A stretch of 64,000 nt of DNA from Promethearchaeota archaeon (GCA_048937405.1 JBHLNF010000002.1:1-64000), one strand, 5' to 3'; shown: positions 12,427-23,127, counted from the first letter of the stretch. Notes: generated by a model from the sequence alone, not told the origin. Numbers and translations: made by a program.

Positions 12427-14337
12427 TTATAATTGATTAATCGGTAATTTAAATATAAAAGAACAACCCTTATTTCTACCTTCTGATTCAACCCATATTT
12501 GGCCTTCATGCAAATCTATTATTTCTTTAGAAATATACAATCCAAGACCAGTTCCTTGAATGTCCATATATTCCAATCCCTCTCCATGTCTCTCTATTTT
12601 CCCAAACCTAATAAAGAGTCTCTCCATTTCTTCCTTGGTCAATCCAATTCCGGTATCTTTAATTATTATTTCAACTTTACAATCTTTTCTCGAAGAATAT
12701 ATTGAAATCACTCCTTTAGGTGGTGTGTTTTTTATAGCATTTGATAACAAATTTAATATAACCTGTTCAATTCTTACTTTATCGATTTCTAAAAATAGTT
12801 CATCTATAAGATTAAGTTCTAATTTTAATTCACGTTGTTTGATAAGATACTTCATTTCTTTAACACAATCTATAATTAATTGGTTGATATCTGTTCTATC
12901 TTTCTTTAATTTGAATTTTCCATATTCTATTCGAGTAATATCAACTAAATTGTCTACAAGGTATTTTAATCTCTTTCCGCCTTTTTCAATCATTTTAATT
13001 AATTCTGTTGCTTCATCCTTAAATTGCTCTAGATATAAATCTAAAAGTAATTCAGTAGCACCACAAACAGAAACTAATGGAGTTTTTAATTCGTGTGAAA
13101 CTCTTGAAATTAAGTCCTTCCTAATTTGGTCTAATTCTTTTAATTTTACAATCTCTTCTTTAATAAGAAGATCTGCTTTTCTTTTCTCTGTTATATCACT
13201 TATTACAGTTTGTAGTAAAGTTACATCGCTCACTTTAACTAATGTACTTTGATAACTTATCCAGGATGTATGACCATCCTTTTTATACAATTCAATCTCT
13301 AAAGGAGGTAAAAATTCACCTTTTAAAACTTTCTGAAATCGATTAACCATTTCAGGTAAATATTTTGGATGAACTGCTGGAAGTTCCTTAAAATTGGTTC
13401 CAACTAATTCTTCTTGTTTATATCCAAATAATTTTTCGACTGCTGGATTACAATAAATTATTGAACCTTCTTGATTTATTAGTACTATTGAGAATGGAAC
13501 AGATTCGATTAAATTCCTATATCTTTCTTCAGACACTTTCAATTTTTTTTCCGTTAAAATACGTTCTGTAATATTACGAATATTACCTTGAATTACTTGC
13601 TTCTCTCCCATATAAAACATACTTGATGATACTTCAGCAATGAAAATTTCGCCATTCTTTTTCAAAAAATTAATTTCAAATTTAATAACACCTTTTTTTT
13701 GAATCTCTTCAAATGCTTTTTTAGAAACTTCAAGCGCATTCACTGGATGAAGATCCGCTATTTTTAATTTTAATATTTCTGATCTTGTATAACCAAATTG
13801 TTCTAATGCTCTTTGATTAACATCTATAATGTTGCCTTCTATATCATGAAGTAGAATTCCATCATTTGAATGATGGAATAGAATGCTGTATTTCTCTTCA
13901 GATTCTCTTAATTCTTTTGTCTTTTTATTTACTAATTGTTCAAACTCATCTTTAAATTTTTCTTCTTCTTTTTTTCTTTTAGTAATATCGCGAAATATTC
14001 CATAAAAACCAATTTTATTGCCATTAGAATCATATTTTAAATATACAGAAGTTTCTCCAGTGATAATTTCTTTAGATTTATTAAAAAATTGATATTCCAG
14101 ATCTATTTTCGGGATTCCTGTTTTAAAAACCGTATTAAATCCTTCAAACACTATTTTTTGATTTTCCTTATCTGTAACTTGTTTATAGTTTAACTTCAAA
14201 AATTCTTCTCTCGAGAAACCTGTCATCTCACATAATGCTTTATTACAATAAATATAATTACCCTTTAAATCAACCTCATAATAACCTTCTTTAATATTAT
14301 CAATAATCATTAAAAATTTATTTTGAGGTAAATTCAC
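12427..14337 (-). CDS. Multi-PAS sensor histidine kinase
   Basis: Three PAS/PAC repeats (DIT.RK), SHELKTPL H-box, NLLSNAIK, DTGIG, GTGLGL. Confidence 0.95.
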   Translation of the reverse strand: MNLPQNKFLMIIDNIKEGYYEVDLKGNYIYCNKALCEMTGFSREEFLKLNYKQVTDKENQKIVFEGFNTVFKTGIPKIDLEYQFFNKSKEIITGETSVYLKYDSNGNKIGFYGIFRDITKRKKEEEKFKDEFEQLVNKKTKELRESEEKYSILFHHSNDGILLHDIEGNIIDVNQRALEQFGYTRSEILKLKIADLHPVNALEVSKKAFEEIQKKGVIKFEINFLKKNGEIFIAEVSSSMFYMGEKQVIQGNIRNITERILTEKKLKVSEERYRNLIESVPFSIVLINQEGSIIYCNPAVEKLFGYKQEELVGTNFKELPAVHPKYLPEMVNRFQKVLKGEFLPPLEIELYKKDGHTSWISYQSTLVKVSDVTLLQTVISDITEKRKADLLIKEEIVKLKELDQIRKDLISRVSHELKTPLVSVCGATELLLDLYLEQFKDEATELIKMIEKGGKRLKYLVDNLVDITRIEYGKFKLKKDRTDINQLIIDCVKEMKYLIKQRELKLELNLIDELFLEIDKVRIEQVILNLLSNAIKNTPPKGVISIYSSRKDCKVEIIIKDTGIGLTKEEMERLFIRFGKIERHGEGLEYMDIQGTGLGLYISKEIIDLHEGQIWVESEGRNKGCSFIFKLPINQL

Positions 14338-14652
14338 TGCTTTCCATACCTTATTAGTTTTTTGAGAGGTTTAGATAAAGAAAATTTTGTTCAAAATTAT
14401 TTCTTTGAAATCTCAAGAAATTTAACTATTTCCATATGGTTAATAAAATAATTAGTATTTATTTTTTACATTTAGAAAAAATCAAAATTTTTTTTTTGAT
14501 ATACCCAAGTTTAGGCAATTTAACTAATGTAATTCTTATTGAAATAATTGAAATCTGACAAAAGCTCTTATTTTAATAAATGATAAGAATTAAAAACTTA
14601 AGTATGTTGTATTTCATACAGAAATAAATATGAAGCTATTTTTGGTGTTATT

Positions 14653-14952
14653 ATGAAAAACTCAAAAAAATCTTATCAAAGGATTTTAGGCTCAGTTCAA
14701 AAACCAGTAATAGGAGAAGCAGGTAAAACTGGAACATGGAGCGCAAAAAAACCGATTATTGATAAAAATAAATGTATTCCTGCAAAATCTGGAAAACCAA
14801 GTTGCTTTAACTGCTGGCTTTATTGTCCTGAAGCGGTTATTACAAGAACTATCCCTCCTGAAATAGATCTAATTCATTGCAAAGGTTGTGGTATTTGTAT
14901 GGAAGAATGTCCTGTAAACGCAATTAGTATGGAGGAAAAGAAATTAAGATGA
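14653..14952 (+). CDS. porD: 2-oxoacid:ferredoxin oxidoreductase delta subunit
   Basis: KTGTW...KP, CWLYCPE, CKGCGICMEECP. Confidence 0.92.
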   Translation: MKNSKKSYQRILGSVQKPVIGEAGKTGTWSAKKPIIDKNKCIPAKSGKPSCFNCWLYCPEAVITRTIPPEIDLIHCKGCGICMEECPVNAISMEEKKLR

Positions 14953-16241
14953 CTGTGACTGAAAAGCAAAAGATGAGTATAGATAACGACATGAGACTAT
15001 TAACAGGAAATCATGCAGCTGCACATGCTTTTAGACAGGCTCGAGTTGGAGTTATTTCGGCTTATCCAATTACACCTCAGAGTCCTGTAGTCGAAAAAAT
15101 TGCTGAGTTTATAGCAGATGGAAAATTAAATGCAAGGTTTGTAAAAGTTGAATCTGAACATTCAGCATTAGCAGTGTGTTGTGCAGCTTCTGCAACAGGT
15201 TCACGGGTTGGCACAGCAACTTCTGCTCATGGGTTGGAATTGATGTATGAAATGTTACCTTGGGCAGCGGGGAATAGATTACCTATTATAATTAATCTAG
15301 CAACAAGATCCTTGGGAGCACCCTGGTCCGTCTGGACAGATCACTCTGATTTTGTTACAATAAGAGATGTTGGGTGGATTCAGTATATGTGTGAAAATAA
15401 CCAAGAGATCTATGATACTAATCTTCAAGCATTCAAAATTGCTGAAGATCCTCGTGTTTTTCTTCCTTCTGTAGTGGCTTATGATGGGTATATACTTAGT
15501 CATACAATGATGCCTGTCAAATTGGAAAATCAAGCCAAAATTGATGAATTTTTACCACCGTTAAATCATCACATTAATCTTTCTGATATCTCAACAGTAA
15601 AAGGTATAGATCCAGTAACCACTCCTAATATTGTTAAGCGAGTAGAAGGAACAGCTCCAGGTTATTATGAATATAGATATGCACTTCAGAAATCATTAGA
15701 AAATTCAATTGATATTATTAAGGAGGTACATAACGATTTTGCTAAAAGATTTGGGAGATCATACGGAAATGGGATATACAAAACAGTTCAAACTGAGGAT
15801 GCTGATACTATAATTTATGCTATGGGTTCTGTTGCTTCTCAGGCTAGAGTTGCTATAAAGAAACTTAGAGCAGAAGGATTAAAGATTGGAATAGTAAGTC
15901 TTAAACTTTTTAGACCTTTTCCACATGAAGAGTTAAGAGATTTCTTTAAAGACAAAGAAAATATCATTGTGTTTGATAGAGATATTGGATATGGATATGA
16001 AGGTGTTTTATCCTATGAATTAAAAGCTGCACTTTATAGTTTAAAAAAAAGACCTAATATTAAAGGTTTTATTATAGGTTTAGGAGGTAGAGATATTAAA
16101 ACTAAGCATATAATAACTGGTGTCCATAAAGCTTTAGAGGAATTTCAAGAAGGAATACTTACAAATAAGACTGATTTTTTGGGTTTAAGATTAGGTGAAC
16201 TAAGTGATTATGATGAATCAACATACTTTAAAAATAGGTGA
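14949..16241 (+). CDS. porA: 2-oxoacid:ferredoxin oxidoreductase alpha subunit
   Basis: AYPITPQS, VESEHSA, FRPFP, GLGGRD. Confidence 0.95.
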   Translation: MTVTEKQKMSIDNDMRLLTGNHAAAHAFRQARVGVISAYPITPQSPVVEKIAEFIADGKLNARFVKVESEHSALAVCCAASATGSRVGTATSAHGLELMYEMLPWAAGNRLPIIINLATRSLGAPWSVWTDHSDFVTIRDVGWIQYMCENNQEIYDTNLQAFKIAEDPRVFLPSVVAYDGYILSHTMMPVKLENQAKIDEFLPPLNHHINLSDISTVKGIDPVTTPNIVKRVEGTAPGYYEYRYALQKSLENSIDIIKEVHNDFAKRFGRSYGNGIYKTVQTEDADTIIYAMGSVASQARVAIKKLRAEGLKIGIVSLKLFRPFPHEELRDFFKDKENIIVFDRDIGYGYEGVLSYELKAALYSLKKRPNIKGFIIGLGGRDIKTKHIITGVHKALEEFQEGILTNKTDFLGLRLGELSDYDESTYFKNR

Positions 16242-16247
16242 AAAATA

Positions 16248-17150
16248 ATGGTAAATGTTATGGATCTTCCTGAAGAGGAATATATATATCCGGGTACTCG
16301 TGCTTGTGCTGGATGTGCTATGGCTTTAATATATAGAATAGCGTTAAAGGCTCTGGGAGCGAAAACATTAATAACCGTACCAGCATCATGTTTAACAGTT
16401 TTACATGGTATGCAGGGATTCTGCTCTACGAAAATAAGTGTATATCATACGCCTTTTGCAACTACAGGTGCTTCAGCATCGGGTATTTTAGCCTCTTTGG
16501 AAGATAAAGGATTAGCGGATGAAATCACAGTTTTAGCTTTTGCAGGTGATGGAGGTACATCTGATATCGGAGTGCAAGCTCTAAGTGGTGCAGTTGAAAG
16601 AGGGACAAACTTTATATATGCGTGCTATGATAATGAAGCCTATATGAATACAGGTGTTCAACGAAGTAGTTCTACACCCTTAGGAGTAAAAACGACTACC
16701 ACTCCAGAAGGTAAACTAGGGCATAAAAAAAATATGCCTAAAATTTTAGAGGCCCATGGTATTCCATATGTTGCAACGGGAATTGCCTCATATCCTTTAG
16801 ATTTATATGAAAAATTTAAGAAAGCAAAAAATATATATGGATCAAAGTATTTTCATATTCTATCGCCTTGTCCACCTGGATGGGGCTATGATCCTAAAGA
16901 CACCATATTAATCGGGCGTTTAGCTATACAAACAGGTTTCTGGATTTTGTACGAAATTGAAAATGGTAAATTCAAATTATCAAGACCAAGTACCAGATAT
17001 TTGGATCCATCAAAACGTAAACCTATTGAAGAGTATCTCAAGACTCAAAAAAGATTCAGTAAAATGACTCCGCAAGAAATTGAAGTGTATAAAACATATA
17101 TTAATGATATGTGGGCAGATATTAAAAGAAGAATTGAATACCAAGACTAA
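16248..17150 (+). CDS. porB: 2-oxoacid:ferredoxin oxidoreductase beta subunit
   Basis: ACAGC, GDGG TPP motif, DNEAYMNTGVQRS, PCPPGW. Confidence 0.95.
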   Translation: MVNVMDLPEEEYIYPGTRACAGCAMALIYRIALKALGAKTLITVPASCLTVLHGMQGFCSTKISVYHTPFATTGASASGILASLEDKGLADEITVLAFAGDGGTSDIGVQALSGAVERGTNFIYACYDNEAYMNTGVQRSSSTPLGVKTTTTPEGKLGHKKNMPKILEAHGIPYVATGIASYPLDLYEKFKKAKNIYGSKYFHILSPCPPGWGYDPKDTILIGRLAIQTGFWILYEIENGKFKLSRPSTRYLDPSKRKPIEEYLKTQKRFSKMTPQEIEVYKTYINDMWADIKRRIEYQD

Positions 17151-17249
17151 ATTCTAATCTAAAATATCTTCTCTATACAATTTTTTACTATTTTCTTAAT
17201 ATTTTATGGTAAAAATTAAAAGTTAATCCTATTTAAATTAAGTAGAGAT

Positions 17250-18035
17250 TTGACGATAAGAACCTTTATTTTTGATGAGGATAAATCCCATTGGTTAGAA
17301 GAAGAACGTAGTTTATTGCCTCATGATATTTGTACAATCTTAGATGAAGAAAACGAAATTCTTTATTTTTGGAGAGGTCCAAAAAGTAATAAGGAGAGCT
17401 TTAGAATGGGGTATAAACAGATAACAAAATTAATTTCAGAATTTTCTGATTTAAACCTTCAACTTGTTATGGATCAGAAGAATATACCTCTTAACATCCT
17501 ACATAAGGTTGATACGATGTTAGAATCTATGAAATTGGGAAATAAAAAATTATTAAAATTTAGTAGTTTTACCACAATAAGAATTTATTCCATTTTAATA
17601 ACAATTTCTGTTTTATTACCAATTTTATTATTTATACTTTTAAGTTCATCTCTAACATGGAATATATCTAATGGAAATTATGAAGTCAATAGTTCACTCT
17701 ATGATTTTTGGATCGATACTTCAAAGTTACTCACATTTCTTACCTTGATTGTTTTTTCAATAAATATTATAATTGGAATTATTGAATCCGAATATCAGGT
17801 AATTATAACTTCATTAAACGGATTGATTCTCTCAATTGGTCTAGTAATATACCTTAACCAGGGAATTTTCCTATTTTTATTTCAAGAAGGATCAACCCTC
17901 AACACATACTTAATATCACAAAAAGACCTATTTATCTTTTTATTACTTACTTTAATTACAATACTGATTTTTGAAATACCAAATATATATAAACTAATAT
18001 CTTTTTTCAACACTTATCGAAAATTCATTTTTTAG
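17250..18035 (+). CDS. Gelsolin-like domain fused to ~4 TM helices
   Basis: SLLPHDICTILDEENEILYFWRGPKS matches the gelsolin-repeat core; four hydrophobic stretches in the C-terminal part. Confidence 0.65.
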   Translation: MTIRTFIFDEDKSHWLEEERSLLPHDICTILDEENEILYFWRGPKSNKESFRMGYKQITKLISEFSDLNLQLVMDQKNIPLNILHKVDTMLESMKLGNKKLLKFSSFTTIRIYSILITISVLLPILLFILLSSSLTWNISNGNYEVNSSLYDFWIDTSKLLTFLTLIVFSINIIIGIIESEYQVIITSLNGLILSIGLVIYLNQGIFLFLFQEGSTLNTYLISQKDLFIFLLLTLITILIFEIPNIYKLISFFNTYRKFIF

Positions 18036-18046
18036 TTGAGAAAAGT

Positions 18047-18925
18047 GTGGAAGCCGCTAACATTCTTAAGAATCTTGAAAAAGAGGATTTTCGAGTCCTC
18101 ATGGCAATTGAAATTGGAATGAAAAGATCAGAATACGTCACGGTAGCTAATATCAAATTCTATGCGAGGTACAAGATGGAAGAAACACTTTTTCGTTTAA
18201 AAAAAGTCCATAAACTTGCTTTAATAATTAGAGATGCTTCTAAACATGAAATTGCATATACTCTTAATTCAAAAGCATATGATATCCTTGCTTTACATAC
18301 ATTGGTTGAACAAAATGTAATAAGTCAGTTAGGACCTTTAATAGGTAAAGGTAAAGAATCAGATGTATATAGTTGTATGAATGATGATGGAGATATTTAT
18401 GCAGCTAAATTTTATCGAATGGGGAGAACAAGTTTTAAAAATATAAAACAGATGAGAGATCTTGTTGGGGAGAGAGGACATTTATCATGGCTGTATGTTA
18501 ACAGACTTGCTGCTAAAAAAGAATTTGAGGCTCTTGAAAAAATTTTTACCCTTAAATTAAATACACCAAAACCAATTGCTTATAATAGACATGTAATTAT
18601 AATGTCTTACTTGAGAGGTAAAGAATTAGTTTATTATAAAAGTATTAAAAATCCTGTCAAAATTTTTAATAAAATTATCAAACAATTAAAAATAATCTAT
18701 AAGAAAGCTAAAATGATACATGGTGATTTGGGGGAATTTAACATCGTTCTAGATCATAAGGGCAATCTCCTCTTAATTGATTGGCTCCAGTGGGTTCCAG
18801 ATGATCATCCTAATGCTGCTTCTTTATTGGAAAGAGATATTAGAAATATATGCTCATATTTCGAAAAGAAATATAAAATTGAATGCAATATAGATGAAAT
18901 TCTTAAATCATTTTATAAAAATTAA
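18047..18925 (+). CDS. rio2: RIO2 serine/threonine kinase
   Basis: N-terminal wHTH, IGKGKESDVY, KFYRMGRTSF, IHGDLGEFN, IDWLQ. Confidence 0.95.
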   Translation: MEAANILKNLEKEDFRVLMAIEIGMKRSEYVTVANIKFYARYKMEETLFRLKKVHKLALIIRDASKHEIAYTLNSKAYDILALHTLVEQNVISQLGPLIGKGKESDVYSCMNDDGDIYAAKFYRMGRTSFKNIKQMRDLVGERGHLSWLYVNRLAAKKEFEALEKIFTLKLNTPKPIAYNRHVIIMSYLRGKELVYYKSIKNPVKIFNKIIKQLKIIYKKAKMIHGDLGEFNIVLDHKGNLLLIDWLQWVPDDHPNAASLLERDIRNICSYFEKKYKIECNIDEILKSFYKN

Positions 18926-18927
18926 AA

Positions 18928-19551
18928 TCAGAATGGTTTATTTTTCAAAATCTTTCCCTGAATCACTAAATCTTCTAAATTATCTCTTTTTGTTAGCCTC
19001 AAATCTTCAATTTTAGATTTCAATATGTTTATTAAATTTTCTTCCTGAATATTTTTCTTTAATATTGAAAATTTAAAATCAGCATTATTCTTCCCTACCA
19101 TATACAATTCCTCAATTCCATTTTTAATATTAGGTAAATTTTGAAATGCTGTAAGTGAAAAAATAGAATTAAAGATATTTTCCCTAAAAGGCAAAAATTC
19201 AATATCAGATAGAACTAAATTTAATGAAATTTTTTTTATATCCCTCTTTATAACTTTTGATTTGAATTCTAATAACATATTCCTAGAGATGTCTAATGCA
19301 ACATAATTATATCTTATTACTCTCTTATCTAATATCAACTTTAATAGGTGTTCAAAAATTAGTCCTGTACCACACCCCATATCTAAAATGAGTTTACTGT
19401 TTATTTTGAAATTACTGAAGATAATTTCAAATTTTTCTGTTTGTATTGATTTATACCTTTTATCATAAAAATATGATGTTGAATTGTATTTCTCTATTAT
19501 TCTTTTCTTTTTATCTTGATTTTTAAGGGAATCTTCCAATATATTTACCAA
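18928..19551 (-). CDS. Class I SAM methyltransferase
   Basis: YDKRY..Q..K, LDMGCGTG, LDISRNML, LPFRE. Confidence 0.85.
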   Translation of the reverse strand: MVNILEDSLKNQDKKKRIIEKYNSTSYFYDKRYKSIQTEKFEIIFSNFKINSKLILDMGCGTGLIFEHLLKLILDKRVIRYNYVALDISRNMLLEFKSKVIKRDIKKISLNLVLSDIEFLPFRENIFNSIFSLTAFQNLPNIKNGIEELYMVGKNNADFKFSILKKNIQEENLINILKSKIEDLRLTKRDNLEDLVIQGKILKNKPF

Positions 19552-19660
19552 TGGATTTTATTTGTATTTTTGTGTCGTAAGGTTTTAATTTAAAAAATGC
19601 TATCTTTAAATTATCTTTTCAATAAATGTTATAATAATTTCAGTAATTTAAGAATTTAAA

Positions 19661-19924
19661 ATGTCAAACCGAAATGATCAGCAACAAAGGTCAAAAAATC
19701 CTTTATCTATCCTTCAATCAGCCCAAAACTCAATAATCTTACTAAGATTAAAAGATGGGACTGAATATAGGGGATTATTAAAAGAAATAGATGCATATAT
19801 GAATATGATTTTAGAAGATGCTACTGAACTCCTAGAAGGGACTCCTGTAGCTAAATATAATGAGATTTTCATTCGAGGTAATAATCTCCTTTTTATAAAG
19901 CCAGATGCTTCTCAAATCACATAA
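19661..19924 (+). CDS. Sm/Lsm RNA-binding protein
   Basis: LKDG.EYRG.L...D.YMN.IL (Sm1); IRGNN (Sm2). Confidence 0.95.
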   Translation: MSNRNDQQQRSKNPLSILQSAQNSIILLRLKDGTEYRGLLKEIDAYMNMILEDATELLEGTPVAKYNEIFIRGNNLLFIKPDASQIT

Positions 19925-20012
19925 GTAAAGATAAATTTTTGTACTAATGCATTTTCTTTAATACTTTAGAGTTCTTTACTAAAAAGGAATTTTGAAAAAT
20001 ATTAGTATATAA

Positions 20013-20912
20013 TTATATGAGTTTCGGAATTACTTTATTATTTTTAATTATTGCATATGAAGCTGGATTGGGATGATAAGATCCTCTATAATTAGCAGAA
20101 GAAAATACTGATAACAATCTTTTGTTGAAAAACCATTTAAATCCTTCTGGAAAGCATTCATGTGCTCTAATAAGATATTCTAAATTATTTACTTCCATAA
20201 AATTTTCAAAAACTTCATATCCAAAAAAAAAAATGCCTGGACCTCTGAAACTCCTAGAGAACCCCATTATTTCTGATTTAGGGTCATTCCACATAATCTG
20301 ATAAATACCTTGTGAAATGGAATTAAAAATTAATTTCAAATCCTTACACTTTTGACCTTTTAATTTCTTAATAATATCTGTATCTTGTGGAATTCCTCCA
20401 TGTAAACACAAAATATTACCATTAATTAATGCACATATGGGAAGAACATCATATATACTCAACACTTCATTGAATCTATTACTATTTTTAAATCTTAAAA
20501 TAAAATCTTGAAAAAAACCATAATATTCATTCATCTCCAGAGTTTCATGATTTCCCCTTAATATATAATATTTTAATGGGAAAAGAATCTTTAAAATGAG
20601 AATTATTAGTAAACAATCTAGTTGATTTGGCCCCCGATCAACGATATCTCCCAAAAAAATAACTAATTTTGGATTTTTTTTATTAATAATTTCAATCAAT
20701 TTCATCAACGTGCTTAAATTTCCATGAATATCTCCTATTACATAAACTTCCTCAATTTCCTCCTTTATACTAAACTCTAGAAGTAAATATTCTTCCTCTA
20801 AAATATTCTTAACCGTTTTAAAAATCTGTAGTATAGCATCAAACTCTAGTTCAGAGATTTTTTGTGGATTATTTATTATATCATTTAGGAATGATTTATC
20901 AATTCCATTCAA
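20013..20912 (-). CDS. PPP-family Ser/Thr protein phosphatase
   Basis: GDIHG, GDIVDRG, RGNHE, HGG, WNDP, RAHE, FSSANY. Confidence 0.93.
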   Translation of the reverse strand: MNGIDKSFLNDIINNPQKISELEFDAILQIFKTVKNILEEEYLLLEFSIKEEIEEVYVIGDIHGNLSTLMKLIEIINKKNPKLVIFLGDIVDRGPNQLDCLLIILILKILFPLKYYILRGNHETLEMNEYYGFFQDFILRFKNSNRFNEVLSIYDVLPICALINGNILCLHGGIPQDTDIIKKLKGQKCKDLKLIFNSISQGIYQIMWNDPKSEIMGFSRSFRGPGIFFFGYEVFENFMEVNNLEYLIRAHECFPEGFKWFFNKRLLSVFSSANYRGSYHPNPASYAIIKNNKVIPKLI

Positions 20913-21018
20913 ACTTTTTTTGATCCCAATGTTTTGTTTTTTATATCACTTACATCATTTTTATTATTGTCTTTAATGTTTTTATAAATAAAGAATTTTA
21001 ATTATTGGTTAAATTCTG

Positions 21019-23127
21019 ATGGAAGAATCATTTACTCGAGAAATGTACCGTTTAATAGAGCAAAAGATTGAGAGTTTTGAAAATGAAAAATTTCTTGAGA
21101 AGGACGAGAATCATAATCTTGGAATAATCTATACTCCTAAACAGCTTGTAGATTTTATCGTATCTAATATATTCAGAATTCATTTTGAAAAGATTTTGAA
21201 TTATCAAAATAAAACTAAAGGGAATCTAAATTTAGAAAAGATAAGTTATTTATTTAATAATAATCAGAAATTTAATAAAACCTTTACCAAAATAGTTAAA
21301 AATCTTAGGATATTAGACCCATCTTGCGGTTCTGGGAGATTTTTAATATCAATTGCAGAAACATTATATCAAATTTATCGAATTATCAATCCTGAATTGT
21401 CTGATTTCAACATAAAAAAAACTATAATTCAAAATAATCTTTATGGAATTGAAATTGATAATTCTGCTCTTTCCATTTCAAAATTAAGGTTATTTAAATG
21501 GTTGATTTCTTCTAATTTGAATAACTCCTTCCTCCGCAATGTCGACATCGAGAGTTTTAATGTTACATATATTAACCAAATTATTGAAAAATCTGGTTTA
21601 AAATTTAATATTTTCAATCAGGATTTTCTGTTAGAATTTAGATCTGAGAAATTCGATATAATAATTGGAAATCCACCTTATATTGAAAATAAAAAGATAA
21701 AAGATAAAGAATTTAAGAATAAGATTAAAAGTAAATTTAAAACTGCTTATCGTTTATATGACCTTTCTATAATTTTTATTGAGAAATCTTTACAATTATT
21801 GGAAGATAACGGCTCTCTCTCATTTATTCTACCTAATAAATTTTTATCTGCAGACTATGGTATTAAAATCAGAAAATTATTATTGAATGAATCTGAAATT
21901 AAAGAAATTATAAATATTTCATCTTTACCAATATTTCAAAACACTGCTACATATCCTATAATCTTATCTTTAAAAAAGAATGATCAAAATAAAAACCAAG
22001 AAATAAAATTTAAAATTTTAAATGATAAGAATGATATAATTGAAAATAACAGAATTAAGACTAAAAAGTTTCATCAAGATTTAATTCAGAAATTTCCCTC
22101 CAATGTAATTCCAATTTCAGGAAATATAAATTTAGTAACATACTTATATAATAACTTTAAAACCTTTTCGGATACCTATAAGGATTTAAAAATAATATAT
22201 CGACCTTTTGGTTTTTTAAAATATAGGAAACATTTTGATAATATAAGTGATGAGCGTCAATCAGATAATGATTTACTATTAATTGGAACAGGCAATATAG
22301 AAAAATATTATATTAAATTCAATAAAAGAATAAAAATTGCTGGCAAGGATATCAAAATCTCATATTTTAATTATAATCATAATTTTGATCATATTTGGAA
22401 TGAGATTGCCTGTGAAAAACTAATTTTTAGGGAAATCGCGAAAGATTTAACTTGTTATTATGATCCAGGGATATTCACCAATATAACGGGGCTCTATTTT
22501 ATAAAAATTGCTTCATTCAACACTGATCAATTATTCGGTTTGTTAACAATTCTTAATTCAAACATATTAGATTTGGTGTTTAAAACACTATTTGGTACTT
22601 TACATATGGCAGGAGGATATTTACGATTTAACGGGAGTTTTATTAAGAGATTACCATTACCAAGAAAAATTCCTATGGTTTTATCACAATTAGGAAAAAT
22701 TATACAACTCCTTTCTCAATTAAGATATGATTCTAACTCAATTGATCTCAAAATTATAATTAACTCTGAATTTGAAAGTTTTGATAACAAATACCATAAT
22801 CAAATAAATGCACTCCTTAAATATTTTATAAAATTGAGCAATTCTTTAGTGAATTTATTGTTTTTAGATGAATTTTATTTGAAATCTAATTTAGATTACA
22901 ACATTTTAAGAGAATTATTTAGTTTACATATTGAACCTCAAACAATTCCATTTAAATATTTAATTCCTCGATTTGAAGTACAAAATTATGAGGTATATTC
23001 CATAGATGATTTAGATTCTATTTTAACAAAAATAAAAAAATTGTATAACCAATTCTATATTAATACTGATTTATTAAGACAATTAGAGGATATTGAAAGA
23101 AAATTTTCTGATAAAACGAAAATATAG
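21019..23127 (+). CDS. Amino (N6-adenine) DNA methyltransferase, Eco57I/TaqI-like
   Basis: YTP, DPSCGSG (motif I), GNPPY (motif IV), TaqI_C-like LNS...LP tail. Confidence 0.88.
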   Translation: MEESFTREMYRLIEQKIESFENEKFLEKDENHNLGIIYTPKQLVDFIVSNIFRIHFEKILNYQNKTKGNLNLEKISYLFNNNQKFNKTFTKIVKNLRILDPSCGSGRFLISIAETLYQIYRIINPELSDFNIKKTIIQNNLYGIEIDNSALSISKLRLFKWLISSNLNNSFLRNVDIESFNVTYINQIIEKSGLKFNIFNQDFLLEFRSEKFDIIIGNPPYIENKKIKDKEFKNKIKSKFKTAYRLYDLSIIFIEKSLQLLEDNGSLSFILPNKFLSADYGIKIRKLLLNESEIKEIINISSLPIFQNTATYPIILSLKKNDQNKNQEIKFKILNDKNDIIENNRIKTKKFHQDLIQKFPSNVIPISGNINLVTYLYNNFKTFSDTYKDLKIIYRPFGFLKYRKHFDNISDERQSDNDLLLIGTGNIEKYYIKFNKRIKIAGKDIKISYFNYNHNFDHIWNEIACEKLIFREIAKDLTCYYDPGIFTNITGLYFIKIASFNTDQLFGLLTILNSNILDLVFKTLFGTLHMAGGYLRFNGSFIKRLPLPRKIPMVLSQLGKIIQLLSQLRYDSNSIDLKIIINSEFESFDNKYHNQINALLKYFIKLSNSLVNLLFLDEFYLKSNLDYNILRELFSLHIEPQTIPFKYLIPRFEVQNYEVYSIDDLDSILTKIKKLYNQFYINTDLLRQLEDIERKFSDKTKI

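What the first reader, a model, noticed from the sequence alone, without database searches (positions are those of the whole stretch)
17250..18035. Gelsolin-like domain fused to a four-helix membrane domain
Seen: residues ~20-60 (SLLPHDICTILDEENEILYFWRGPKSNKESFRMG) fit the gelsolin-repeat consensus (L...D.FILD....IY.W.G..S), followed by four hydrophobic helices at about aa 112-135, 160-178, 184-201 and 227-243. Known: Asgard archaea encode actin and soluble gelsolin-family regulators. Inference: an integral-membrane gelsolin could tether or cap actin filaments at the membrane, relevant to Asgard protrusions. I am not aware of this architecture being characterised. The gene lies 11 bp upstream of rio2.
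Basis: partly seen in the sequence, partly recalled or inferred. Interest (0 to 1): 0.72.

Follow-up and report, generated by a model that had tools for sequence, protein, structure and literature searches.

The report
Membrane-anchored gelsolin-domain protein of Lokiarchaeia
This Asgard (Loki-type) archaeal gene encodes a small membrane protein whose inward-facing head is a true gelsolin-type domain (the fold that regulates actin) on four membrane helices, so it is a testable but unproven candidate for fastening the archaeal actin skeleton to the cell membrane.

Summary
Window 17250-18035 (+) is a 261-aa ORF with a gelsolin-homology head (aa 2-88), a short basic linker and a four-helix membrane bundle. 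It ends 11 nt before rio2.

Four tests support the gelsolin assignment:
- AlphaFold2 model (pLDDT 85.7): best Foldseek match is Thorarchaeota ProGel 7C2F (E 2.7e-5).
- VIA-align to the same chain: Z 10.1.
- hhalign against ProGel: 95-97% probability.
- An order-wide family profile hits villin at E 1e-10 and gelsolin at about 9e-9.

The positive-inside rule puts the head in the cytoplasm. The membrane module matches no named family.

The full-length protein is confined to one Asgard order (126 of 152 other genomes). Unnamed orthologues exist in Promethearchaeum syntrophicum MK-D1 and Lokiarchaeum ossiferum. No paper I searched describes a membrane-integral gelsolin.

Actin binding is not shown:
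- The canonical calcium-site Glu is missing.
- The exposed face of the long helix varies.
- ProGel itself binds actin weakly.

This scan has already found and followed up orthologues in at least 20 other genomes, with the same reading. New here:
- the stronger profile statistics;
- a conserved C-terminal tail motif in the MK-D1-type orthologues;
- loss of the canonical ATG in this copy.

Verdict: a new variant of a known kind; its function is a hypothesis.

The parts
17250..18035 (+). Whole gene ('GelTM'): 261 codons plus stop, TTG start
   Evidence: ORF list and translation. 157 homologues. Intact copies in 150 of 399 Asgard genomes.
17250..17258 (+). Start region: TTG ACG ATA. The ACG sits where all 21 relatives compared have their ATG start.
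   Evidence: Alignment of start regions in 21 related loci.
17180..17249 (+). AT-rich upstream region with an A-rich box (AAAAATTAAAAG...). The genus relatives keep a similar box about 35-48 nt upstream of the start. Candidate own promoter.
   Evidence: Upstream sequences printed side by side. Inference only; no archaeal promoter model was run.
17253..17513 (+). Gelsolin-homology domain, aa 2-88: strands 3-9, 14-17, 27-32, 37-42, long helix 48-64, strand 71-73, then helix 81-96, whose C-terminal part lies beyond aa 88
   Evidence: AF2 model. Foldseek 7c2f_B E 2.7e-5, TM-score normalised to the target 0.70. VIA-align Z 10.1, rmsd 2.8 A, 84 of 88 residues. hhalign to ProGel 95.5%. Family profile against PDB sequences.
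17322..17384 (+). Signature core, aa 25-45: H25-D26 ... L31-D32-E33 ... Y39-x-W41-x-G43-x-K45. D32, Y39, W41, G43 and K45 pair with the ProGel invariants D33, Y40, W42, G44 and K46.
   Evidence: Invariant columns. hhalign alignment. D26 and G43 are two of only three residues invariant across the whole order-level family.
17532..17567 (+). Linker, aa 95-106: low-confidence stretch 95-101, then the basic flank before TM1 (family K+R 3.1, net +2.1 for aa 97-108)
   Evidence: pLDDT below 50 at 95-101. Charge counts over the alignment.
17568..18029 (+). Four-helix membrane bundle, aa 107-260: helices 107-136, 148-178, 182-202, 224-260. A beta-hairpin at 138-147 and a strand at 219-223 lie in the two outward loops.
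   Evidence: AF2 model, pLDDT 92-96. Hydropathy. VIA-align finds only generic four-helix bundles. ESM Atlas gives no named family.
17844..17897 (+). End of TM3 and start of outer loop 2, aa 199-216 (Y-L-N-Q-G-I-F-L-F-L-F-Q-E-G-S): the best-conserved membrane segment. G197 (just before this segment), Y201 and F209 are invariant or nearly so across the whole order.
   Evidence: Invariant columns. Loop 3 pairwise identity 65% in the window's own clade.
18047..18925 (+). Neighbouring rio2 (GTG start, 11 nt after the GelTM stop), probably co-transcribed in this genus. Context only, not part of the protein.
   Evidence: Pfam RIO1 and Rio2_N. The GTG start and short spacer are conserved in relatives. 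The adjacency is lost in the other family.

Best explanation
The gene encodes an integral membrane protein found in one order of Lokiarchaeia. Its first ~90 residues form a single gelsolin-homology domain of the ProGel type, which faces the cytoplasm. A short basic linker joins it to a conserved antiparallel four-helix membrane bundle, with both termini inside.

The most likely function is to hold a weak, calcium-independent, ProGel-like actin-binding head at the inner face of the membrane. Many copies, or oligomers formed through the membrane module, could then attach Lokiactin filaments to the membrane by avidity, for example in protrusions.

Shown here: the gene is real and conserved; the gelsolin fold and homology; the four hydrophobic helices; the charge bias that puts the head inside. 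Inferred: actin binding, attachment rather than capping or severing, and any oligomerisation.
For: 1. Homology of the head.
- Foldseek on the model (pLDDT 85.7) puts ProGel 7c2f_B first (E 2.7e-5), and every listed match of the top 50 is a gelsolin-family domain.
- VIA-align gives Z 10.1 over 84 of 88 residues.
- The MK-D1 orthologue modelled separately (pLDDT 90.7) gives the same answer.
- hhalign to a ProGel alignment gives 95.5% (E 1.5e-8) and 97.2% (E 4.7e-11).
- The order-wide profile hits villin at 1.1e-10, gelsolin at about 9e-9 and ProGel at 1.3e-6. ProGel has the best single-domain score, 31.1 bits.
- 29 of 47 family members touch Pfam Gelsolin.
- An HMM of the head finds 3 of the genome's 4 Pfam-gelsolin ORFs among its six best non-self hits out of 10,719 ORFs.

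2. Topology.
- K+R per protein is 8.0 on the predicted inside against 1.0 in the two outer loops in the window's own clade, and 14 against 1.9 in the order-wide set.
- A 100-residue charged head without a signal peptide is not expected to be exported (general knowledge).

3. Partner and precedent.
- The genome encodes Lokiactin and four other actin-family genes.
- ProGel crystallised on actin at the gelsolin G1/cofilin site, bundles filaments at high concentration and decorates F-actin in cells (PMC7444086).

4. Across the order the head is the best-conserved part (33% pairwise identity against 19-22% for TM1, TM2 and TM4).
Against: - No result here shows actin binding.
- ProGel, the closest relative, has negligible affinity for G-actin (Kd 337 uM) and no capping or severing activity (PMC7444086).
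- The outward-facing positions of the long helix (aa 49, 52, 56, 58, 62) are variable and polar in this family, while the ProGel helix is almost invariant at similar divergence. This is odd if the partner is actin, which is more than 80% identical across these genomes.
- ProGel-invariant polar helix residues (K52, T56, R57, S63) are not kept.
- The gelsolin fold also occurs in proteins not shown to bind actin, such as Sec23 (noted in PMC7444086).
- The membrane module is as conserved as the head in the window's own clade (51-65% against 55%) and carries invariant polar residues (E179, S188, D226; E181, Q183, Q212, E242 and N245 in at least 90%). It is therefore more than a passive anchor.
- The gene is missing from some near-complete genomes of the same family, for example 0 of 4 in one genus (the first-look filter may miss some).
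- The known L. ossiferum actin co-IP list does not include the orthologue, although its authors say membrane proteins are under-represented.
Confidence: 0.45

Rival explanations
1. The gelsolin-fold head has been put to another use. It binds a partner other than actin, or it regulates the membrane module, which has a function of its own (small channel or transporter, receptor for an outside signal, or assembly factor). The protein would then be a membrane protein with a gelsolin-like cytoplasmic regulatory domain and not a cytoskeletal linker.
For: - The exposed face of the long helix is variable, and ProGel's invariant polar helix residues are lost.
- The most conserved head residues lie elsewhere: E17, H25 and D26 in the strand 2-strand 3 region.
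- The membrane module is strongly conserved, with invariant or nearly invariant polar residues and a very conserved outer loop.
- Sec23's gelsolin-like domain is a precedent for a gelsolin fold not shown to bind actin (PMC7444086).
Against: - The membrane module matches no transporter, channel or enzyme family. The only matches are generic or designed four-helix bundles.
- Four helices per chain with no match to a known pore are thin support for transport.
- The closest relatives by sequence are all actin regulators, and Sec23 or cofilin do not appear in the Foldseek top 50.
- The gene neighbourhood gives no alternative pathway.
Confidence: 0.35
2. One reading: a calcium-regulated, gelsolin-like capper or severer fixed in the membrane, which caps barbed ends at the membrane.
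For: - The Asp at the position of the type II calcium-site Asp (D26) is invariant across the whole order-level family.
- 13 of 30 distant orthologues, including those of MK-D1 and L. ossiferum, have an acidic residue at G43+7, where gelsolin repeats carry the type II Glu.
Against: - In the window's clade G43+7 is Lys by consensus and Ser in this protein, so the Asp/Glu pair is incomplete.
- D26 is spaced one residue further from the L-D motif than in gelsolin repeats, so its equivalence is uncertain.
- Single-domain Asgard gelsolins are not calcium regulated, and ProGel does not cap or sever (PMC7444086).
- There is no second gelsolin domain, and no WH2-like L-basic-basic-T/V motif after the head in this clade.
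Confidence: 0.08
3. In this particular genome the copy is silent or decaying, because its ATG start has mutated to ACG.
For: All 21 relatives compared start at ATG where the window has ACG. Only a TTG one codon upstream remains.
Against: - The frame is fully open.
- All 21 family-invariant residues are kept.
- TTG is a usable start in archaea, and two relatives also carry TTG just before their ATG.
- A single base could also be an assembly error.
Confidence: 0.05

Closest known systems
Thorarchaeota ProGel (PDB 7C2F chains B/D; Akil et al. 2020, PMC7444086)
   Same: Single gelsolin/cofilin-type domain of about 90 aa. It is the best match by structure (Foldseek E 2.7e-5, VIA-align Z 10.1) and by profile (hhalign 95-97%; 31.1 bits, the best single-domain score). 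It shares the D...Y-x-W-x-G-x-K core and the one-residue-longer hairpin. It also lacks the complete type II calcium pair.
   Different: ProGel is a free soluble protein. This protein carries a 160-aa four-helix membrane module. Sequence identity is only 18-24%. ProGel's invariant polar helix residues are not kept. ProGel lacks the H-D pair that is invariant here.
Asgard 1DGelX / B35_GelX (one gelsolin domain plus domain X)
   Same: One gelsolin domain followed by a non-gelsolin C-terminal module, which is the design principle Akil et al. propose for gaining new activities.
   Different: Domain X is described as a predicted coiled coil or disordered soluble region (PMC7444086; bioRxiv 10.1101/2025.11.30.690169). 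Here the C-terminal module is four hydrophobic transmembrane helices. I did not compare the sequences directly.
Asgard 2DGel and eukaryotic gelsolin/villin/CapG/adseverin
   Same: The same superfamily: the order-wide profile hits villin at 1.1e-10 and gelsolin at about 9e-9, with several repeats of each matched.
   Different: Those proteins have 2-6 repeats, type I and II calcium sites and a WH2-like linker motif, and they are soluble. They reach membranes only peripherally, for example through phosphoinositides (my own knowledge). None is an integral membrane protein.
Eukaryotic actin-membrane linkers (ERM proteins, talin-integrin, supervillin)
   Same: The proposed job: coupling cortical actin to the membrane.
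   Different: There is no homology in the anchoring part. The eukaryotic systems use peripheral adaptors plus separate transmembrane partners. Here the head and the anchor would be one polypeptide. This is an analogy only.

Membership tests
Gelsolin superfamily (gelsolin-homology domain) | Fold: central beta-sheet packed between a long helix and a shorter helix | tested here: met
   AF2 models of the window protein and the MK-D1 orthologue. Foldseek top hit 7c2f_B, with every listed match of the top 50 from the gelsolin family. VIA-align Z 10.1, rmsd 2.8 A, 84 of 88 aa.
Gelsolin superfamily (gelsolin-homology domain) | Sequence signature L-D...I-Y-x-W-x-G (the D/W/G motif of Akil et al.) | tested here: met
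   L31, D32, Y39 and G43 are invariant and W41 nearly so in the window's own clade. They align to ProGel D33, Y40, W42 and G44.
Gelsolin superfamily (gelsolin-homology domain) | Statistically significant profile match to known members | tested here: met
   hhalign 95.5% and 97.2% to ProGel. Order-wide profile: villin 1.1e-10, gelsolin about 9e-9, ProGel 1.3e-6.
Gelsolin superfamily (gelsolin-homology domain) | Pfam PF00626 hit above the curated cut-off for the single protein | tested here: not met
   The window protein has no Pfam hit at E<=1. 29 of 47 family members hit PF00626 only weakly, best E 1.3e-4. This explains why the family is annotated 'hypothetical'.
Gelsolin superfamily (gelsolin-homology domain) | Binds actin at the cleft between subdomains 1 and 3 | not testable with these tools
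Indirect signs are mixed; see the Against line.
Calcium-regulated gelsolins (2DGel, eukaryotic gelsolin) | Type II site: Asp before the core strand plus Glu at the start of the long helix (G+7 after the W-x-G glycine) | tested here: not met
   The Asp (D26) is invariant, but G43+7 is Lys by consensus and Ser in the window protein. It is acidic in only 13 of 30 distant members. Which residues form the site is taken from my knowledge of gelsolin G2 (D187/E209).
ProGel (free single-domain Asgard gelsolin/cofilin) | A protein of about 90-115 aa that consists of the domain alone | tested here: not met
   261 aa with a 160-aa membrane module. True ProGel ORFs of 90-112 aa were fetched from another Asgard family for comparison.
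1DGelX | Gelsolin domain followed by a soluble coiled-coil or disordered domain X | tested here: not met
   The C-terminal part is four hydrophobic helices (Kyte-Doolittle 19-aa window means 2.1-2.7) that form a membrane bundle. No sequence comparison with 1DGelX was made.
Named four-pass membrane families (claudin/PMP22-like, tetraspanin, small transporters) | Structural or profile match of aa 100-261 | tested here: inconclusive
   VIA-align wide search lists only designed or generic helical bundles, Z up to 15.1, which is in the range typical for helical bundles. ESM Atlas, Pfam and NCBIfam give nothing named.

The most novel reading that the evidence does not exclude
GelTM is a one-chain transmembrane coupler. 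Its very conserved outer loops (a beta-hairpin plus the aromatic G-x-F-L-F-x-F loop) engage something outside the cell, such as the surface layer, the substrate or a partner cell. Its cytoplasmic gelsolin head engages Lokiactin. In the MK-D1 / L. ossiferum type, a conserved tail (P-T-I-L-R-D-K-x-P-V-E-L-K-E-I, with an L-K-E-I that resembles WH2-like motifs) would add a second contact. That would make it a functional analogue of integrin-talin adhesion in the crawling, protrusion-forming Asgard cells, built from a gelsolin domain.
Probability: 0.1. Interest if true: 0.9.

Novelty: new variant of a known kind. Interest (0 to 1): 0.6.

Why it matters
Cultured Lokiarchaeia have actin-filled protrusions and crawl (bioRxiv 10.1101/2025.11.30.690169). 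The papers I read name no protein that ties Lokiactin to the membrane. The described Asgard actin regulators (profilins, ProGel, 1DGelX, 2DGel) are presented there as free proteins without a membrane domain.

A gelsolin domain built into an integral membrane protein is not described in any paper I could search. It gives a concrete candidate with orthologues in two cultured strains (DSAG12_00505 and NEF87_002464), so the question can be tested at the bench. If the head does not bind actin, the family still shows that the gelsolin fold was recruited to a membrane role before eukaryotes arose.

Tried and rejected
No verdict.
- RNA evidence: no RNA holder was listed for window 16800-19600.
- Proteome and co-IP table of the L. 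ossiferum preprint. It uses GNAMCCOK identifiers. UYP46179.1 and NEF87_002464 do not occur in the held text. By offset the orthologue should be GNAMCCOK_02482 to 02485. Only 02483 appears in the held, truncated file, without a mass, so its identity stays open.
- Accession searches in the paper library: none found.
- Supplement of Akil et al. 2020, wanted for the actin-contact residues: not held.
- Claudin-like idea, prompted by beta-strands in the outer loops. No claudin or PMP22 chain appeared among the 50 rows shown by VIA-align, and only generic bundles did. I dropped it as unsupported, but it is not excluded.
- ESM Atlas, Pfam and NCBIfam for the membrane module: nothing named.
- Search for the C-terminal tail motif. 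The own genome has one chance-like hit to the short core pattern and none to the full tail pattern. In MK-D1, L. ossiferum and Harpocratesius only the GelTM orthologues carry it. It is therefore not a shared targeting motif.
- Functional link to rio2: rejected. The adjacency is part of a long syntenic block within one family and is lost elsewhere.

Full report
**What is there**

Window 17250-18035 (+) is an open frame of 261 codons. No ORF of 50 aa or more overlaps it in another frame. It lies between a 2-oxoacid:ferredoxin oxidoreductase-like operon (14653-17150; TPP_enzyme_C in the last gene) and rio2 (18047-18925; RIO1 5.9e-50, Rio2_N 4.5e-19). On its own the protein has no Pfam or NCBIfam hit.

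**Is it a real gene?**

A word-indexed search found 157 homologues at E<=0.01, nearly all 257-262 aa and all named 'hypothetical'. An exhaustive search of 1.84 billion cluster representatives found 74 clusters. These include full-length relatives of 270-320 aa at 22-30% identity.

In 399 Asgard genomes, an HMM of the family matched 150:
- Full-length matches are confined to the window's own order: family f1 110/133, f2 1/1, f3 12/14, f4 3/4.
- Outside that order, nearly all listed hits (E 1e-5 to 1e-3) fall on short ORFs of about 93-170 aa and cover only the gelsolin core. The ten I fetched are ProGel-type proteins.
- The one stronger outside hit is the EamA-fused remnant described under other observations.

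Exact look-up identifies orthologues in three named organisms, all unnamed proteins:
- Candidatus Lokiarchaeum ossiferum: NEF87_002464 / UYP46179.1, 283 aa.
- Promethearchaeum syntrophicum MK-D1: DSAG12_00505 / QEE14692.1, 286 aa.
- Candidatus Harpocratesius repetitus.

**The head is a gelsolin domain**

AlphaFold2 on a 47-sequence alignment gave mean pLDDT 85.7. It shows strands 3-9, 14-17, 27-32 and 37-42, a long helix 48-64, strand 71-73 and helix 81-96.

Structure comparison:
- Foldseek against the PDB ranks Thorarchaeota ProGel (7c2f_B) first, with E 2.7e-5 and TM-score normalised to the target 0.70. Every listed match of the top 50 is gelsolin, villin, adseverin, CapG, severin or an Asgard gelsolin.
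- VIA-align, which does not depend on Foldseek, gives Z 10.1, rmsd 2.8 A and 84 of 88 residues for the same protein.
- The MK-D1 orthologue, modelled from a different alignment (pLDDT 90.7), gives ProGel first again, with E 2.1e-4 and TM-score normalised to the target 0.75.

Sequence comparison:
- The window clade's profile hits ProGel at 1.1e-3, followed only by gelsolin-family chains and two weak RbcX hits.
- The order-wide profile hits villin at 1.1e-10, gelsolins at about 9e-9 and ProGel at 1.3e-6. ProGel has the best single-domain score, 31.1 bits.
- hhalign against an alignment of ten ProGel ORFs that I fetched gives 95.5% (E 1.5e-8) and 97.2% (E 4.7e-11).
- D32, Y39, W41, G43 and K45 pair with the ProGel invariants D33, Y40, W42, G44 and K46.
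- 29 of 47 members touch Pfam Gelsolin weakly.
- An HMM of the head, run on all 10,719 ORFs of the window's genome, finds 3 of the 4 Pfam-positive gelsolin ORFs among its six best non-self hits.

**The membrane module and topology**

Four hydrophobic segments (Kyte-Doolittle means 2.1-2.7 over 19 aa) form an up-down-up-down bundle of long helices at pLDDT 92-96. A beta-hairpin (138-147) sits in the first loop and a strand (219-223) in the third. Structure searches return only designed or generic helical bundles. The ESM Atlas gives nothing named.

Charge counts over the alignments follow the positive-inside rule:
- Window's own clade: pre-TM1 flank + loop 2 + C-terminus carry 3.1 + 0.1 + 4.8 K+R, against 0.6 + 0.4 in loops 1 and 3.
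- Order-wide set: 14 against 1.9.

So both ends, and the gelsolin head, face the cytoplasm. N-x-S/T sequons cluster around the first outer loop, which is weak support.

The module is not a bland anchor. In the window's own clade it is as conserved as the head (51-65% against 55%). E179, S188 and D226 are invariant, and E181, Q183, Q212, E242 and N245 are kept in at least 90% of members. Across the order, G197, Y201 and F209 are invariant or nearly so.

**Does it bind actin?**

This is not shown. The genome has Lokiactin and four other actin-family genes.

In favour: the closest relative, ProGel, was crystallised on actin at the G1/cofilin site, bundles filaments and decorates F-actin in cells (PMC7444086).

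Against:
- ProGel's affinity for G-actin is negligible (Kd 337 uM), and it neither caps nor severs.
- In GelTM, the conserved positions of the long helix follow the buried i, i+3/4, i+7 stripe (G54, L61, F65). The outward positions (49, 52, 56, 58, 62) are variable and polar. The ProGel helix is nearly invariant at similar divergence.
- Earlier follow-ups in this scan (e1-5701589, e1-5649636) made the same point. I could confirm it only at this sequence level.

Calcium:
- D26, at or next to the type II Asp position, is one of three residues invariant across the order.
- The Glu expected at G43+7 (as in gelsolin G2 E209, aligned) is Lys or Ser in the window's clade, and acidic in only 13 of 30 distant members.
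- A canonical calcium switch is therefore unlikely in this protein.

**Context**

Within family f1, the block oxidoreductase-GelTM-rio2-methyltransferase-Sm-phosphatase-N6 methylase is syntenic throughout. In MK-D1 and L. ossiferum the neighbours differ: an N6-methylase-like gene lies downstream in both, and TFB lies upstream in L. ossiferum. The rio2 link is therefore local history and not a functional clue.

**Literature**

Akil et al. 2020 list three Asgard architectures: ProGel, 1DGelX and 2DGel. Akil et al. 2022 and the 2025 L. ossiferum motility preprint add extended 2DGels and single-domain proteins with disordered parts. The preprint's co-IP list does not contain UYP46179.1 and, by the authors' own remark, under-samples membrane proteins. 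Full-text searches for gelsolin with Asgard and transmembrane or membrane-anchored found no description of this architecture.

**Earlier notes of this scan**

Orthologues in at least 20 other genomes were flagged, and several were followed up with the same reading. My tests agree with them independently. New here:
- the order-wide profile statistics;
- the second model, of a cultured-strain orthologue;
- the tail motif;
- the start-codon change;
- the EamA-fused remnant.

**Other observations**

- The orthologues of MK-D1, L. ossiferum and Harpocratesius, and many metagenomic ones, carry a 30-50 aa cytoplasmic tail with a conserved P-T-I-L-R-D-K-x-P-V-E-L-K-E-I motif. The window's clade lacks it and ends right after TM4.
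- The window's clade has turned the short inner loop 2 from basic (T-K-K-I-F) to acidic (E-x-E-x-Q).
- The window copy has ACG where all 21 relatives compared have the ATG start, with a TTG one codon upstream.

**Verdict**

This is a new architectural variant of the gelsolin superfamily, of moderate to high interest because it can be tested in cultured strains.

Noticed in passing
window 17250-17258: The canonical start codon of this gene family (ATG in all 21 relatives compared) is ACG in this genome. The only nearby in-frame start is TTG, one codon upstream. This could be a real start shift, a sequencing error or early decay.
   Followed up: partly
L018:4927-5016 (-), L019:4817-4900 (-), L020:4700-4790 (-); alignment A3: Orthologues in P. 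syntrophicum MK-D1, L. ossiferum, Harpocratesius and many metagenomes have a C-terminal cytoplasmic tail with a conserved motif P-T-I-L-R-D-K-x-P-V-E-L-K-E-I. Its L-K-E-I resembles the WH2-like L-K-D-V / L-R-R-V motifs of Asgard 2DGels. The tail is absent from the window's clade and occurs only in GelTM orthologues in those three genomes.
   Followed up: partly
L037:1826-2962 (-) (G058, another Asgard family): A truncated piece of this gene (aa about 38-110: half of the gelsolin head plus the pre-TM1 flank) is fused in frame to an EamA/DMT transporter (PF00892, 2.5e-33). The sequence upstream is unrelated. It is a rearrangement remnant or an assembly chimera.
   Followed up: partly
L038:2860-3567 (-) (MK-D1 genome): MK-D1 and several genomes of its family carry a second, shorter paralogue (235-250 aa) with a gelsolin-like head and hydrophobic helices. 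The order therefore has at least two subfamilies of membrane-bound gelsolin-like proteins.
   Followed up: no
window 17784-17798 (aa 179-183): The short inner loop between TM2 and TM3 is acidic in the window's clade (E179 invariant, E181 and Q183 in at least 90%) but basic (T-K/R-K/R-I-F) in the MK-D1 / L. ossiferum type. This is a clade-specific charge switch on the cytoplasmic face.
   Followed up: no
window 12427-23127: A syntenic block is conserved across the family: PAS histidine kinase (-), oxidoreductase delta/alpha/beta, GelTM, rio2, SAM methyltransferase (-), Sm-like protein, metallophosphatase-like gene (-; not checked against Pfam), large N6-methylase-like gene. Rio2 keeps a GTG start in the genus.
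   Followed up: partly
one search hit table: Source names of proteins 60-75% identical to this one range over Odin-, Thor-, Hod-, Hermod- and Promethearchaeota. The genome-based search places all full-length matches in one order, so these deposit labels look unreliable for taxonomy.
   Followed up: no
G000 C28:502979-503821 (-) and C27:130465-131385 (-): Two further ORFs of the window's genome (281 and 307 aa) give marginal hits (E 0.002-0.004) to the GelTM head HMM but are not Pfam-gelsolin positives. They may be additional divergent gelsolin-like proteins.
   Followed up: no
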